A stretch of DNA of 64,000 bases from Octopus vulgaris. Lineage: Eukaryota. Both the position numbers and the translations under genes were made by a program. Shown piece after piece: positions 44,990 through 59,882 of the stretch; within the stretch, counting starts at the first letter, position 1, and each line of letters begins with the position of its first letter. The notes under the pieces are model-generated. The model worked only from the letters and a program-made list of their open reading frames with translations, had not been told where the DNA came from and searched no databases. The stretch is taken from positions 35,340,001 through 35,404,000 of the forward strand of contig OX597829.1 in NCBI GenBank assembly GCA_951406725.2, written 5' to 3'.

Positions 44990-45302
44990 ATCATCATCAT
45001 CATAACAATCATCATCATCATCATCATCATCATTCTTCTTCTTCTTCTTCTTCTTCTTCTTCTTCTTCTTCTTCTTCTTCTTCTTCTTCTTATTATTTTT
45101 TATTATTATTATTATTATTATTATTATTATTATTATTATTATTATTATTATTATTATTATTATTATTATTATCATCATCATTATTATTATTATTATTATT
45201 ATTATTATTATTATTATTATTATTATTATTATTATTATTATTATTATTATTATTATTATTATTATTATTATTATTATTATTATTATTATTATTATTATTA
45301 TT
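44990..45302. repeat. (CAT)n/(CTT)n/(TTA)n compound microsatellite, left edge of the R4 array
   Basis: Direct reading. Confidence 0.95.
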
Positions 45303-45868
45303 GAGTGAGAGAGCAGTGCATGCCATCAAAGTGACACTGGGATAAAATATACGAAGCCCAATATACCCATCATGACTACCCGTCTGATAAGGGTGCACCA
45401 GGCACATGCATCACAACCATATGTGCGCGACATGGTGATCTCATATCAAGATAAACAGCGCATGACCTTGCAGGTGAGGCCCAGTTAGAATTTTCTTCTT
45501 GTCGAGTAGCCCATCCCACTCAAAAGGTGCTTGAATAAGGATTGTTTAAGGATGTTGAACGAACCACTCCTGTTTCCAAAAGTGAATTATCCAAGCCACT
45601 AAGAATTCCTTTCAACGCACGGCTATGATGCTCCTCCACTACTTCTGCTTGTGATCAGAGATGCACATATTGTCAGCCACTAAGGGACATGCTCAACTGA
45701 TGATGATGGTTAAGGTCAAACAACTGACAAGCAAATCTGTGGTATTGAGCAGAATATTTGCTGTAGCCCATCTTTTATACCAAGACCAAACAATGTACAT
45801 GATAACACTTCCAATCAGTTAAGATCAGATGTCACGAGAGCCACTGTCTGGTATTGCATCAGGGCATT
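45303..45868 (-). mobile_element. ~565-bp non-coding TAA-associated element, copy 1 (full length)
   Basis: Near-identical to 52094-52644 and 53194-53748; same orientation relative to the TAA tract. Confidence 0.9.
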
Positions 45869-46139
45869 TTCTTCTTCTTCTTCTTCTTCTTCTTCTTCTT
45901 CTTCTTCTTCTTCTTCTTCTTCTTCTTCTTCTTCTTCTTCTTCTTCTTATTATTATTATTATTATTATTATTATTATTATCATCATCATCATCATCATCA
46001 TCATCATCATCATCATCATCATCACCACCACCACCACCACCACCACCACCACCACCACAACCACCAAAACCACCACCACCACCATCGTCGTCGTCGTCGT
46101 CATCATCATCATCATCATTATTATTTTTATTATTATTAT

Positions 46140-48508
46140 TGACTTTTGCTTTATATTTGTTCAAGTTGGCTCCAAGTTTCACCCAGAGATCTCAAGAGAT
46201 AACAAGTTAGAAGTTCCTGTTGGTGTTATGCCTAAGGTGTCATATATTTGGATTTGCACATAGTATTGTTCTAGAGAATGTTTAAGAGAATATAAGAAAA
46301 TTATGAGTTTGTTTTAAAACTTTAGATTAAATAGATAGTATTTTACATAGGATATGGACAGTCCCCATCAGCACTATATTTTGAATTTCTACTATTTTGG
46401 TGTATCCTGGTATCTGAGCTAGGTAGGAATCAGCCCCTTTTGCTATCATTGCTATGGCACCTATGACAACAGATATTGTTTTAATCTTGATGTTCCATAT
46501 TTTGCCAATTTCTATTTTGATATTTTTATACTTGCTCAGTTATTGGTAGGTCTTGACAGATGCATTTATGTCGATTGGGACAGTCATATCAATGAGGAGG
46601 CATGGTTTTTGTCTGAAGACTTTCAATATAATGTCTGGACTATTCACGTCTATATTTCTGTCAGTGTGAACGGTGAAGTTCCTAAGTATTGAGATGTGAT
46701 CATTTTCAAGCACTGGAAGTACTTTGTGTTCGTACTAATTTTTATCATGGGACAGGTCCGTCGTCTAGCTAATAATGATTCTATTGTTATCAAAATGGCG
46801 GATAAGAGAGGCATTTGTATTTTAATAATTTTGCAAATTACCCATTGAATATACTGTGCTGCTCTATCATGCCTGTGGAGATACTCTGTAGGCGCAAGAA
46901 GACTGTACATGGAGACAACTTGATTAATGGTTTCATTTTGTTGTTGACATACACGACATGTTGAGCTACTGCCGTTCTTTAATATGTTGGCCTGGTAGTT
47001 CCTTGTTGGTAGTCATTGATCTTGGGCTGCTATGATAATCCCTTCTGTTTCTGATTTTAAGCCAGGAGACACTAACCATCAGCACTATATTTTGAATTTC
47101 TACTATTTTGGTGTATCCTGGTATCTGAGCTAGGAAGGAATCAGCCCCTTTTGCTATCATTCCTATGGCGCCTATGACAACAGATATTGTTTTAATCTTG
47201 ATAGATAAGGGCTTTGTCAACATCGACCATTATTAGTTCTCTTTGGGCATTTGCCATTGAAAGGTTTTTCTTGCCAAGTATCAGTAAGAATATCTAAGGC
47301 AACAGTTTTAGCACGGGTTTTCACATGCTTAGCTTGTTTCTAGTACGTCTAATTCTTGGATTTATTGTATTTGGAATTCACCTTTATATTCATTTGCCTG
47401 TTTTGTTACTGAGTATGATGCTTTCTTGTTTTCTTGTTTTGAGACAAGTTTTAACGTTCAGTCATCATAGTATTTCAGGTAGGTGTTTAGGCCAATTGTG
47501 ATAACCTTCATTGTTAATTCCAGTTGTAAAAGTCCTCGGCCGCACTCTTTTATTGGGAGATAAAGTCGTTCTATACCTGCGTTAGGGTGGTACATATATG
47601 CATTGTCAATAATTTTCGTATTTTTCTGTCAAGATCACGCATTTCAGTAATTGACCAGTTAACGACTGGTATGGCTAAAATATTGATCGCTTCGATCCTG
47701 TTTCTTGCATTCAGCTCTGTCTTGAGTATTGCTCTTACCCTGCGATAATATTCTCTTCCGATCCTTTCGCTCATCATTGAATGTTTGATTCTATCATCTC
47801 AAATAGTAGCTCTCCGCTGGTTCTAATTCCTTTGTGACATTCTGCTGGTCAAGATTAACAATGGATGTTTCTGTTATTTTCCCTTTCATAAAGGTAACTT
47901 TTGGGCATTTATCGAGGCCAAATTGCATCCTGATGTTATCACTGAATTCTTTAACAGTTCCTAGTAATCCTTATAGTGGATGGCCATCTTTTGCAGAGCT
48001 TTAAATCATCCATGTAAAAGAGATGATTTATATTATCAAACATTTTATAGTCATATTGTACAACATTGAACGATTTTGAGAGCGGTATTAAGACTAAACA
48101 AAAGAGAAGTGGTGATAGAGAGTCACCCTGGAAAATGCCACATGAAATCCTTACATCTCAAGCATTGAGAGATACTTTGTCACTGTTCAAAATCAGTGTG
48201 TTTCTTCATGATCTCATACTTACAGACAAGATGTTTCGCAGAGTAGATGCTATTTCATACATTTCCAGACATTTCTTAATCCAGCTATATGGTAAACTAT
48301 CAAAAGCTTTTTTATAGTCTATCTAGGCTACCGACAAGTTTTTGTGTCGTTTGTGACAGTCTTCCAAGCACATCTTATTGATGAATAGCTGATTTTTACA
48401 ACCATAGGACTCACGTTTATACCCCATTTTGTCATTATGGAATATGACATTTTTTATTTAAAAAACTAGCGGTATATTCAGCCAAGACAGATGTTAGTAT
48501 TTTATTAA
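46140..48508 (-). mobile_element. R4/Dong LINE family B, 5'-truncated, decayed, with templated insertions
   Basis: DYKKAFDS, IFQGDSLSP, YMDD, REYYRRVRAILKTELNARN and RHDRAAQYI; 3' UTR shared with 58712-58900. Confidence 0.9.
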
Positions 48509-48509
48509 C

Positions 48510-57639: not shown

Positions 57640-57749
57640 TTTGGTGCTACGATAATGTTATCATTTTTTAGCTTTGATTGGCTCGTGGGGAGACGGCCAT
57701 CATTGCCGTTACAATTATAATCGTACCATTATAGCAGCCGTAGTCGGCT

Positions 57750-57966
57750 TATTATTGTTATTATCTTCACCATTACCATCACTATCATCACTATCACCAC
57801 CATTACCATCATCATCATCATCATCACCATCACCATCACCACCATCATCATCATATTATTATTATTATTATTATTATTATTATTATTATTATTATTATTA
57901 TTATTATTATTATTATTATTGTTGTTGTTGTTGCTGTTGTTGTTGTTGTTGTTGTTGTTGTTGTTA
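57750..57966. repeat. (CAT/CAC)n-(TTA)n-(TTG)n compound microsatellite
   Basis: Direct reading. Confidence 0.93.
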
Positions 57967-58563
57967 TTTTCCTCTTTCAAATTTGCTTCCATTTCTTGCC
58001 GAGTGTCTTCCCGACTCCTAGGGCAAAGAAACTCATAGTATACATTGGTAGGCCATTAAACTAAACTCACTAGTTCGTTCATTTTTTTTAAAGTTAAATT
58101 AAAATACATGGGTAGTAATAGTTCTCACATCGACAATGTTCTTCTCAATACGTGTGATGTACCAGTTAAGACAATATTTTGCACTTCTTGCAGGGATGGT
58201 AAGCCAGGGATCATTCTCATATAATTTTCGGTTCCCTTCTTGATCATTCCTCGCGCTCCTACGATCACTGGTATTGTAACCGCCTTGAGATGCCACATTT
58301 TCTCAATTTCAATGAGCAGGTCTTTATATTTTCTGAGCTTGTCAAACTCTTTCGCCGAGATATTATGATCACAGGGGATACTCATGTCGATCAATAAGCA
58401 AACTTTATTGTTTTGGTCTTTCACAACAATATCCGGTTTATTGGCTTTGATGGTTCGGTCTGTATGTACTGGAAAGTCCCACAGAATCATTACATTTTCT
58501 CCTTCAGTTACAGCTTCAGGGTGGTGATTATACCACTTGTCGGCAGTTTTGATATTGTAATGC
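57967..58563 (-). mobile_element. 5'-truncated ~600-bp copy of R4/Dong family A
   Basis: ORF 58125-58580 is nearly identical to the last ~145 aa of 53954-55864; same 3' UTR. Confidence 0.95.
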
Positions 58564-58711
58564 AATATCAAAAGACACAAAGGATCATTATTATTATTAT
58601 TATTATTATTATTATTATTATTATTATTATTATTATTATTATTATTATTATTATTATTATTATTATTATTATTATTATTATTATTATTATTATTATTATT
58701 ATTATTATTAT

Positions 58712-59882
58712 TATTTTATGTTTGACTCTTGCTTTGCATTTGTACAAGTTGGTTCCAAGTCTCACCAAGAGACCTCAAGAGACAAGTTAGAAGTTCATGT
58801 TGGTGTTATGCCTAGGGTGCCATATATTTGGTTTTGTACATAGTGTTGTTCTAGAGAATGTTTAAGAAGCCATAAGAAAATTATAAGTTTATTTTAAAAT
58901 TTGAGATTGCACAGAAAGTGTCTTATGTAGGATATTGGCAGTTCCCATCAGCACTATCTTTTGAATTTCTGCCATTTTTGGGTATCCTGAGCTAGGTAGG
59001 AATCAGCCCCTTTTGCTATCATTCCTAAGGAACCTATGACAATAGGTATTGTTTTAGTCGTGGTATTACACAATTTGCTAACTTCTATTTCAAGATCTTT
59101 ATACTTGTTCAGTTATTGGTAGGTCTTGACAGATACGTCAATATCGATTGGGACAGCATATCAATGAGGGGGCATGCTTTTTGTCTGAAGTCTTTCAATA
59201 TAATGTCTGGCCTATTTGCATCTATCGTTCTGTCAGTTTGAATGGTGAAGTTCCGGAGGAGTAAGATGTGATCATTTTCAAGCACTGGAGGTGGTTTGTG
59301 TTCGTACCAGTTCAGGTTTTTGCAAATTAGCCAGTGAATATATTGTGAAGCTCTATCATGCCTGTTGAGATACTCTGTAGTCGCAAAAAGACTGCACTTG
59401 GAGACAACATGATCAATGGTTTCATTTTGTTGTTGACATACACGACATGCTGGGCAACTGCCGTTCTTTAATATGTTGGCCTGGTAGTTCCTTCTAGGTA
59501 GGCATTGATCTTGGGCTCCTATGATAAACCCTTCTGTTTCAGATTTTAAGCCAGAAGCCATTAGCCATTTATGGGTAAGGGCTTTGTCAACATCTGCGTT
59601 ATTCGCTCTCTTTCTGTATTTGCCATAGAGAGGTTTTTATTGCCATGTATCAGTCAAAATATCTAAGGCAGCAGTTAAAACTGCATGGGTTTTCATGCAC
59701 TTAGCTTTTTCTGTGCTTGTTTCCAGTACGTCTAATTCTGGGATTTATTGTATTTGGACTTCACTTAGATATTCCTTTGCCTGTTTTGTTACTGAATATG
59801 ATACTTTCTTGCTTTCATGCTCTGAGACAAGTTTTAACTTCCATTCCTCAGAGCTTTTTAGGTAGGTGTCTAGGCTGTTTGG
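58712..59882 (-). mobile_element. R4/Dong LINE family B, 5'-truncated, decayed
   Basis: SGLKSETEGFIIGAQDQ, CRVC..ETIDHVVSKC, RHD and NRPDIIL; (TAA)n at the 3' end. Confidence 0.9.

What the first reader, a model, noticed from the sequence alone, without database searches (positions are those of the whole stretch)
44990..59882. 15-kb unidirectional array of R4/Dong elements and passengers built in a (TAA)n microsatellite
Seen: 12 insertions (family A x2, B x2, C x1, D x1, non-coding element x6) are all on the minus strand, head-to-tail, and separated by trinucleotide tracts, mostly (TTA)n with TCA/CTT/TTG/CTA variants. Ages range from heavily decayed to near-intact. Known: Dong elements target TAA repeats via their RLE endonuclease. 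Inference: each insertion regenerates target repeats, so the locus is a self-extending 'landing strip' that records successive families. It is architecturally reminiscent of telomeric retrotransposon arrays and of strand-biased piRNA clusters.
Basis: partly seen in the sequence, partly recalled or inferred. Interest (0 to 1): 0.7.

Follow-up and report, generated by a model that had tools for sequence, protein, structure and literature searches.

The report
Dong retrotransposons stacked in TAA repeats
Twelve jumping-gene copies of different ages sit head to tail in a run of TAA repeats, a pattern that is common in this genome and likely follows from a known habit of these elements; the less ordinary finds are an abundant 555-base non-coding passenger and a small predicted RNA hairpin shared by the tails of Dong-type elements from several sources.

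Summary
The array is real: 6 R4/Dong-type LINE pieces (A x2, B x2, C, D) and 6 copies of a 555-bp non-coding element (N), all on the minus strand, 84-99% identical to their family references, with no significant age gradient. Corrections: a scrambled Penelope-like piece (partly plus strand) replaces one spacer; one 'spacer' is A's own 5'UTR; the 'near-intact' A lacks about 1.4 kb and is frameshifted. One-strand stacking is the genome-wide rule at short range (18 of 19 neighbours under 1.5 kb in 1 Mb of unselected DNA) and fades beyond it (9 of 14), so it reflects target-strand choice, not a piRNA-cluster or telomere-like system. This scan noted such TAA stacks in other genomes before. New here: (1) N, roughly 50,000 copies, TAA on both sides, no tRNA/Pol III head, no sequence shared with the sampled LINEs; (2) a covarying two-stem 3'UTR hairpin (12 of 13 pairs compensatory) in most local Dong-type families and in 27 of 63 metagenome relatives. 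N carries a look-alike that one of two models detects weakly. Array ordinary; hairpin and passenger worth a follow-up.

The parts
44990..45302 (-). Compound tract, (TAA)n with GAA and TGA variants on the element strand; downstream end of the array
45303..45866 (-). N1, full-length non-coding element, 92.0% to the young-N reference
45869..46140 (-). Compound trinucleotide spacer
46141..48505 (-). B2, decayed 5'-truncated R4/Dong-type LINE (RT to RLE, aa ~553-1235 of A), with an internal 135-bp duplication; 88.9% to family reference
46757..46833 (+). 77-bp exact copy of part of the Penelope-like fragment, inside B2
48506..48909 (.). Rearranged Penelope-like fragment: 48600-48783 in its sense on +, the flanking pieces inverted; not a TAA spacer. 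'Penelope' label is recalled from the RT motifs; Pfam gave RVT_1 on a related copy
48910..49257 (-). N2, old N fragment (positions 47-423 of 555), 84.1%
49256..49565 (-). (GCA)n(GAA)n spacer, no TAA left
49566..50069 (-). C, short RLE-domain fragment whose 3'UTR is largely lost; 93.1%
50070..50232 (-). Compound spacer (TAA, TAG, TGG variants)
50233..50281 (-). N-short, last 49 nt of N (5'-truncated), 91.8%
50300..51986 (-). D, decayed 5'-truncated LINE (aa ~685-1235 of A); 89.2%
51987..52093 (-). (TAA)n(TGA)n spacer
52094..52644 (-). N3, young near-full-length N, 99% to copies on other contigs
52646..52737 (-). (TAA)30 spacer
52738..53025 (-). N4, internally deleted N (first ~40 nt joined to the last 241), 96.3%
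53027..53193 (-). (TAA)n(CAA)n(TAA)n spacer
53194..53748 (-). N5, full-length N, 93.5%; long 3' hairpin around 53250-53291
53776..57854 (-). A1, young R4/Dong-type LINE, 99.3% to a full-length natural copy; 5'UTR truncated, ORF 57657-53957 with one frameshift near 55925; RT, CCHC knuckle, PD-D-K endonuclease
53806..53846 (-). Conserved two-stem 3'UTR hairpin of A1 (also 57991-58031 in A2, 58747-58787 in B1, 46164-46204 in B2)
57855..57965 (-). (CAA)n(TAA)n spacer
57966..58586 (-). A2, 3' 600 bp of an older A copy, 94.9%
58587..58715 (-). (TAA)43 spacer
58716..59945 (-). B1, 5'-truncated LINE (aa ~896-1235 of A), 91.1%; upstream end of the array, no tract at its 5' side

Best explanation
The array is a pile of twelve separate insertions of different age, likely made by R4/Dong-type retrotransposon proteins that cut and prime within (TAA)n on one fixed strand, so that every newcomer into the same repeat run faces the same way. 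Shown: elements carry TAA on both sides, are 5'-truncated with intact 3' ends, differ in age, and same-strand neighbours are the rule at short range genome-wide. Inferred: each insertion splits a tract and leaves TAA on both sides, which slippage lengthens and point mutation turns into GAA/TGA/CAA/TAG variants, so the number of targets grows with the number of insertions and a few loci reach a dozen units by chance. Inferred: N is a non-autonomous passenger copied by the same proteins, and the two-stem 3'UTR hairpin is the RNA signal that the protein binds to start reverse transcription. A Penelope-like insertion later scrambled the N2/B2 junction. No host function is needed.
For: Protein: natural full-length copies have one 1235-aa ORF (2 of 10 loci fetched) with RVT_1, a CX2CX8HX4C knuckle with R between the first two C (matches the RLE-LINE spacing in PMC5678591, passages) and a C-terminal PD-D-K motif (label recalled); nearest solved structures are R2 proteins. 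Targeting: of 53 full-length N copies 46 have AAT directly upstream and 52 downstream; 16 of 27 5'-truncated copies start right after AAT, while only 3 of 15 copies lacking the 3' end are followed by AAT. Full-length A copies begin at a fixed point just after (AAT)n or (AAG)n (28 of 30 printed). Strand: neighbours under 1.5 kb apart agree in 18 of 19 pairs in 25 unselected 40-kb blocks, 35 of 35 in 20 loci picked around A or N, 19 of 20 in the 264 kb around and including the array; at 1.5 kb or more, 9 of 14 in the unselected blocks (p 0.42); AAT tracts over 3 kb apart agree in 11 of 19. Independent ages: 84-99%; copies of one family inside the array differ by 6-20%. Growth: cluster sizes 1x14, 2x3, 3x4, 5x1, 6x2 fit geometric (lnL -34.0) or log-series (-33.6) better than truncated Poisson (-37.1); expected clusters of 12 or more per genome about 41, 280 and 0.02. 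N and A share short tandem duplications of their 5' ends (N 4 of 29; A 2 clear of 30). Hairpin. Known: Dong, DongAg and DongBg target TAA (PMC3812793, passages).
Against: Elements over 3 kb apart also tended to agree in strand (7 of 8 in unselected blocks, p 0.07; 9 of 10 in the region, some pairs linked by element bodies), so a weak regional bias is not excluded. The size fit rests on 24 clusters and would also follow from unequal tract length or unequal purifying selection. N shares no sequence with full-length A or the sampled LINE 3' ends; its hairpin scores only 10-17 bits with the locally trained model (7 of 27 central copies listed; 2 of 4 eligible window copies) and is not found by the model trained on metagenome relatives. 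No empty site or polymorphism was seen. Placement in the R4 clade was not tested against labelled references. B1 lacks an upstream tract and C a TAA tail.
Confidence: 0.85

Rival explanations
1. The array grew by tandem duplication or unequal crossing-over at the TAA tracts rather than by separate insertions.
For: This does happen in this genome: L071 (G000:C24:32331000-32340999) holds 8 N units, 7 of them alternating between two types that are 98-100% identical within type and 93.5% between types, with repeated spacers.
Against: In this window no two units are near-identical: A1/A2 94.4%, B1/B2 84.6%, N copies 80-95%; N3 and A1 are closer to copies on other contigs (99-100%) than to their neighbours.
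Confidence: 0.03
2. The locus is a host-selected, single-strand transposon trap (piRNA-cluster-like).
For: One strand, several families and ages; weak excess of same-strand pairs beyond 3 kb.
Against: Short-range strand agreement is genome-wide. Clusters within the surrounding 264 kb lie on both strands, a D copy at window 601-1395 is on plus, and the array holds only TAA-associated elements apart from a Penelope-like piece with both orientations.
Confidence: 0.04
3. N (half of the units) is mobilised not by Dong-type proteins but by another LINE with a TAA tail that anneals to TAA runs, so two machineries feed the same tract.
For: N has no sequence in common with the sampled Dong-type 3' ends and fails the second hairpin model. 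A second abundant short element also follows AAT runs (49 junctions) and did not appear among the hairpin hits in 1 Mb. Microsatellite tails are described for octopus RTE (PMC9115989, passage).
Confidence: 0.25
4. The array is a mis-assembly of dispersed TAA-flanked copies.
For: Long tracts are hard to assemble; no contig could be shown to cross a TAA spacer.
Against: A run of another study (X6) has contigs with 0-1 differences over 48297-48505, 48522-48698, 48687-48761 and 48733-48825, bridging two junctions inside the Penelope-like piece; X3 (possibly the source) bridges the Penelope/N2 junction. Similar stacks occur at many loci, always strand-consistent.
Confidence: 0.04

Closest known systems
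Dong (Bombyx mori), DongAg, DongBg; R4 clade of RLE non-LTR retrotransposons
   Same: Single ORF with RT, CCHC knuckle and restriction-like endonuclease; TAA microsatellite target (PMC3812793, passages); Dong-R4 is abundant and recently active in Octopus vulgaris (5 active families, 1129 recent insertions; 92.7 Mb, 51 families; PMC13282606, parts 1-2 of the text and supplement passages). That this genome is an octopus is inferred from its repeats and from earlier notes, not tested.
   Different: At least nine families share the target here; A has a 1.6-kb 5'UTR with a ~470-bp internal duplication and its own degenerate triplet run; the shared 3' hairpin was not found in my searches of the paper library.
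R2 SIDEs (Eickbush and Eickbush 2012, PMC3414825, abstract)
   Same: Short non-coding partner of an RLE retrotransposon, same target, no Pol III head, R2-like 5' junction variation.
   Different: SIDEs are visibly the joined 5' ribozyme and 3' end of a parent and are rare; N has no detectable parent sequence among sampled families, no recognised ribozyme, and about 50,000 copies.
tRNA/5S/7SL-headed SINEs (octopus SINEs included)
   Same: Size, copy number, lack of ORF, microsatellite tail.
   Different: No tRNA, no Rfam head, no B box, three T4 runs, no LINE-derived tail by sequence.
Telomeric arrays (HeT-A/TART; TRAS/SART in TTAGG) - recalled
   Same: Head-to-tail, one orientation set by the repeat strand; TRAS/SART-type insertion into a repeat is the closer analogue.
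   Different: Interstitial (35.4 Mb into a 58.8-Mb contig), no end-directed growth, no significant age order, no sign of host function.

Membership tests
Dong / R4 clade (families A-D) | One ORF with RT followed by CCHC knuckle and restriction-like endonuclease, no APE | tested here: met
   1235-aa ORF in L066 and L070; RVT_1 and zf-RVT only; CX2CX8HX4C; R2 proteins nearest in PDB. Window copies are truncated or frameshifted; B, C, D align to A's C-terminal part at 43-62%.
Dong / R4 clade (families A-D) | Insertion into TAA repeats, TAA at both ends | tested here: met
   exceptions in the window: C 3' end, B1 and B2 5' ends.
Dong / R4 clade (families A-D) | RT phylogeny groups with labelled R4/Dong | not testable with these tools
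   448 homologues found, nearly all unnamed; no labelled Dong or R4 sequence could be fetched.
Dong / R4 clade (families A-D) | 5' HDV-like self-cleaving ribozyme (shown for B. mori Dong, PMC3774820, passages and part 4) | tested here: inconclusive
   A has a sharp, structured 5' end that can be parsed by eye as HDV-like, but my descriptor gave 39 parses with no clear winner and fold z was -1.45; absent from the window copy.
Pol III SINE (element N) | Head from tRNA, 5S or 7SL with A and B boxes | tested here: not met
SINE/SIDE partner of a LINE (element N) | 3' end shared in sequence with the partner LINE | tested here: not met
   No blastn/tblastx match of note to full-length A or to the 3' ends collected; unsampled families remain possible.
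SINE/SIDE partner of a LINE (element N) | 3' RNA structure like the partner's | tested here: inconclusive
   Model R1 (trained without N) gives 10-17 bits at one site 56-98 nt from the 3' end, sense strand; a descriptor tuned after seeing N hits 3 N copies among 8 hits in 1 Mb and 3 of 3000 shuffles; model R2 does not find it.
SINE/SIDE partner of a LINE (element N) | Insertion hallmarks of target-primed reverse transcription at the partner's target | tested here: met
   AAT both sides, 5' truncation onto AAT, 5' tandem duplications.
Telomeric retrotransposon array | Chromosome-end position and directional addition | tested here: not met
   Interstitial; rho 0.51, p 0.09.
Uni-strand piRNA cluster | Production of strand-biased piRNAs | not testable with these tools
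   All 24 runs offered were contigs; no small-RNA reads.
Uni-strand piRNA cluster | Strand bias across unrelated transposon types over a long region | tested here: not met
   Clusters flip strand within 264 kb; Penelope-like piece in both orientations.

The most novel reading that the evidence does not exclude
R4/Dong retrotransposons across animals recognise their RNA by one conserved 41-nt element (outer stem, 5x3 internal loop opening with CC, 6-bp stem, 5-nt loop) just before the TAA tail, and the 555-bp N element, which has neither a Pol III head nor any sequence from its carrier, reached about 50,000 copies by mimicking that shape. This would be a structure-only LINE parasite and would give a minimal RNA signal for a TAA-specific retrotransposon protein of which young, open copies exist in this genome.
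Probability: 0.3. Interest if true: 0.62.

Novelty: new member of a known kind. Interest (0 to 1): 0.38.

Why it matters
The array itself shows how a microsatellite-targeting retrotransposon converts single TAA runs into multi-kilobase, one-strand piles and keeps seeding compound microsatellites; about 30 Dong-type 3' ends and 19 N units per Mb make this a real force on genome size here, but it is a consequence of known biology. The conserved 3' hairpin matters more: template recognition in the R4/Dong clade has no described signal in the papers I could search, and a compact covarying element is directly testable. If N rides on it without shared sequence, LINE-SINE partners cannot be assigned by tail homology alone.

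Tried and rejected
N as tRNA, 5S, snRNA or ribozyme derivative: no Rfam or ARAGORN hit; resemblances to U2, 5S and tRNA-Lys seen by eye were not supported. N as coding remnant: 0 Pfam families in 6 frames. N as internal deletion of A: no shared sequence. HDV ribozyme in N: 164 non-specific parses, none starting at the fixed 5' G; fold z -0.10. Shared N/D 3' tail suggested by 50233-50281: rejected, D ends at 50300 with its own tail like other D copies. Tandem duplication in this array: rejected. Regional strand domain: AAT tracts 11 of 19; not established. Contigs over the N5/A1 junction: the repeat was skipped, uninformative. Single-sequence folding of A's 3'UTR is not better than shuffles (z 0.08); the hairpin rests on covariation. 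Papers not held: Albertin 2015, Xiong and Eickbush 1993, Burke 1995; Repbase reports, Kojima and Fujiwara 2004 and the Zenodo library of PMC13282606 could not be seen and may already describe N or the hairpin. Searches behind 'not in print': 0 papers; 0 papers.
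Full report
Setting. The window lies at G000:C16:35340001-35404000 in a 2.80-Gb genome of 227 contigs, on a 58.8-Mb contig. The repeat content and earlier notes of this scan suggest an octopus; I did not establish species or assembly.

Observation. Self-comparison and translated searches give twelve minus-strand units between 45303 and about 59945: six copies of a non-coding element N and six pieces of RLE-type LINEs. Spacers are mostly TTA on the plus strand, that is (TAA)n on the element strand, with single-substitution variants. 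N2 and B2 are separated by 404 bp of rearranged RT sequence whose relatives (888 candidates) read as Penelope-like RT (label recalled; RVT_1 E 1e-4 on one relative); its central 184 bp are on the plus strand and 77 bp of it recur inside B2. The tract at 57760-57854 belongs to A's 5'UTR. A1 lacks the first 1.4 kb of a 5.5-kb element and is frameshifted. C has lost its 3' end and B1 has no upstream tract.

The LINEs. Two of ten longer A loci hold one open 1235-aa frame with RT, a CX2CX8HX4C knuckle and a C-terminal endonuclease motif; R2 proteins are the nearest solved structures. A is very young: the best 26 of 40 scored matches to its 5' region are identical (742 candidates). B, C and D copies in the window have best matches elsewhere of 89, 89 and 86%. 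At least nine families with distinct 3'UTRs end in AAT-type repeats. Dong elements of silkmoth, mosquito and snail target TAA (PMC3812793, passages), and Dong-R4 is abundant and active in Octopus vulgaris (PMC13282606, parts 1-2 and supplement passages; PMC8967140 and PMC9115989, passages). I could not place the families on a tree with labelled references.

Element N. It is 555 bp, has at least 1943 candidates with the 40 best at 97-100%, and 19 units in 1.0 Mb of blocks picked at round coordinates, roughly 50,000 copies, clustered so imprecise. Among 117 distinct matches in all loci held, 53 are full length (46 with AAT upstream, 52 downstream), 27 lack the 5' end (16 start after AAT) and 15 lack the 3' end (3 followed by AAT), which fixes its polarity and shows insertion into existing TAA runs. 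It has no ORF, no tRNA or Rfam match, no B box and three T4 runs, and no sequence match to A or to the LINE tails. Four of 29 young copies repeat their first 10-20 bases at the 5' junction, as do two of 30 A copies clearly (two further rows flagged there are flank matches and were dropped).

Is one strand special? In 25 unselected 40-kb blocks, consecutive units agree in strand in 18 of 19 pairs under 1.5 kb, 2 of 6 at 1.5-3 kb, 2 of 2 at 3-10 kb and 5 of 6 at 10-40 kb; in 20 loci chosen around A or N, 35 of 35 under 1.5 kb. AAT tracts more than 3 kb apart agree in 11 of 19 (20 blocks). Around the window, clusters lie on plus, plus, minus (this array), plus, minus, minus, plus within 264 kb. 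So orientation is inherited from the tract. The 7 of 8 agreement beyond 3 kb (p 0.07) leaves room for a weak regional bias.

Is it self-extending? Ages along the array (92, 89, 84, 93, 92, 89, 99, 96, 94, 99, 95, 91% from left to right; the N reference is biased to N3's subfamily) show no significant order. Ten of 24 clusters in 1 Mb have two to six units; a geometric law fits better than a truncated Poisson by 3.2 log units and predicts about 41 clusters of twelve or more in the genome, against 0.02. This agrees with targets multiplying as insertions accumulate, but unequal tract length or selection would do the same. Duplication also builds arrays elsewhere (L071) but not here.

Assembly. 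Contigs of an independent run match the old middle of the array and bridge two junctions there; a possibly source run bridges Penelope/N2. No TAA spacer was bridged.

A shared 3' hairpin. The 3'UTRs of families A, C, E, F, H and I align without gaps over 41 nt (11 sequences chosen by eye): 7-bp outer stem, 5x3 internal loop beginning CC, 6-bp stem, 5-nt loop. Twelve of 13 pairs show changes on both sides; 91.6% of cells pair against 59.7% in shuffles and 36-56% when slid; RNAalifold gives the same fold. A model from these (R1) gave 16 hits in the 1.0 Mb, all in 3'UTRs of these LINE families including held-out B, 13 of them within 45 nt of an AAT-type tail. In metagenome contigs encoding relatives (79 of 80 loci searched, one duplicate left out), 27 of the 63 with at least 60 nt after the ORF have a sense hit there at E up to 3; 27 of all 38 hits fall in the 13 kb of 3'UTR out of 367 kb searched; some loci are near-duplicates. 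A second model from 21 of these (R2; alignment fitted to R1, so its 88% pairing leans that way) recovers the window's A1, A2, B1, B2 and weakly D. N has a long hairpin at the matching place with the same CC and a GG-containing 5-nt loop and scores 10-17 bits with R1 in 16 copies, only 7 of them among the 27 central copies; R2 does not list it. The clade-wide hairpin is well supported as a structure; its role and N's mimicry are inferred.

Mechanism. Shown: fixed strand relative to TAA, TAA on both sides, 5' truncation, mixed ages, genome-wide recurrence. From established knowledge of RLE elements (recalled; R2 model in PMC3414825, abstract): the protein binds the RNA 3' end, nicks the target and reverse-transcribes from the nick. 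Inferred: tract splitting and regrowth, hairpin as binding signal, N as passenger. How N is transcribed with so sharp a 5' end is unexplained.

Verdict. Observation confirmed; landing-strip reading reasonable but ordinary and noted by this scan in other genomes (unchecked notes); telomere and piRNA analogies unsupported. Interest 0.38, carried mainly by the hairpin and the passenger.

Noticed in passing
L071 (G000:C24:32331000-32340999), 4134-8753: Eight N units in a row; seven alternate between two types with a period of about 1285 bp and repeated spacers, a tandem duplication of an N pair.
   Followed up: partly
L070 7740-7935 (-), and L081-L110: Full-length family A starts at a fixed point with a hairpin-rich 100 nt that can be parsed as an HDV-like ribozyme; 8 of 30 copies have a (GAA)n run between the TAA target and the element, which may explain GAA tracts in arrays.
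   Followed up: partly
L070 5'UTR of family A: About 1.6-kb 5'UTR with a ~470-bp direct duplication (88% identical) and embedded simple repeats.
   Followed up: no
many loci, e.g. L005 187, L071 1503, L074: A second abundant short non-coding element follows AAT-type runs (49 junctions) and ends in AAT; carrier unknown; not among the hairpin hits.
   Followed up: no
L252 ~3627 and L225: 5' end of another Dong-type family, unlike A's in sequence, with a tandem duplication of its first ~25 nt in L252.
   Followed up: partly
window 601-1395 (+), followed by tract 1395-1662: A separate D-family copy on the plus strand with its own (AAT)n tail; 78% identical to the array's D.
   Followed up: yes
window 7491-8376 (-): Decayed RT fragment weakly similar to A (26-31%), another LINE type.
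   Followed up: no
window 10128-12162 (-): Two AT-rich open frames that look like Penelope RT/GIY-YIG remnants (label recalled; no Pfam hit of note).
   Followed up: partly
window 32508-34862 (+); 23859-24275 (+); 2811-3500 (+): Decayed LTR-type RT (RVT_1 E 1e-16 at 33837-34211), a mariner-like N-terminal piece (recalled) and an L1/Tx1-type C-terminal zinc region (zf-RVT, weak).
   Followed up: no
L197 (G000:C17:40020001-40030000) 2274-3770: N copies in opposite orientation 480 bp apart, where an (AAT)n run abuts an (ATT)n run: the one short-range strand exception follows the local tract strand.
   Followed up: partly
L163 4180-5245: Five N units in 1.1 kb, three of them 48-nt 3' ends with the same 5' junction, probably duplicated.
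   Followed up: no
L155 and L171: Two related non-LINE sites that satisfy the hairpin descriptor without a TAA tail; probably another repeat family.
   Followed up: no
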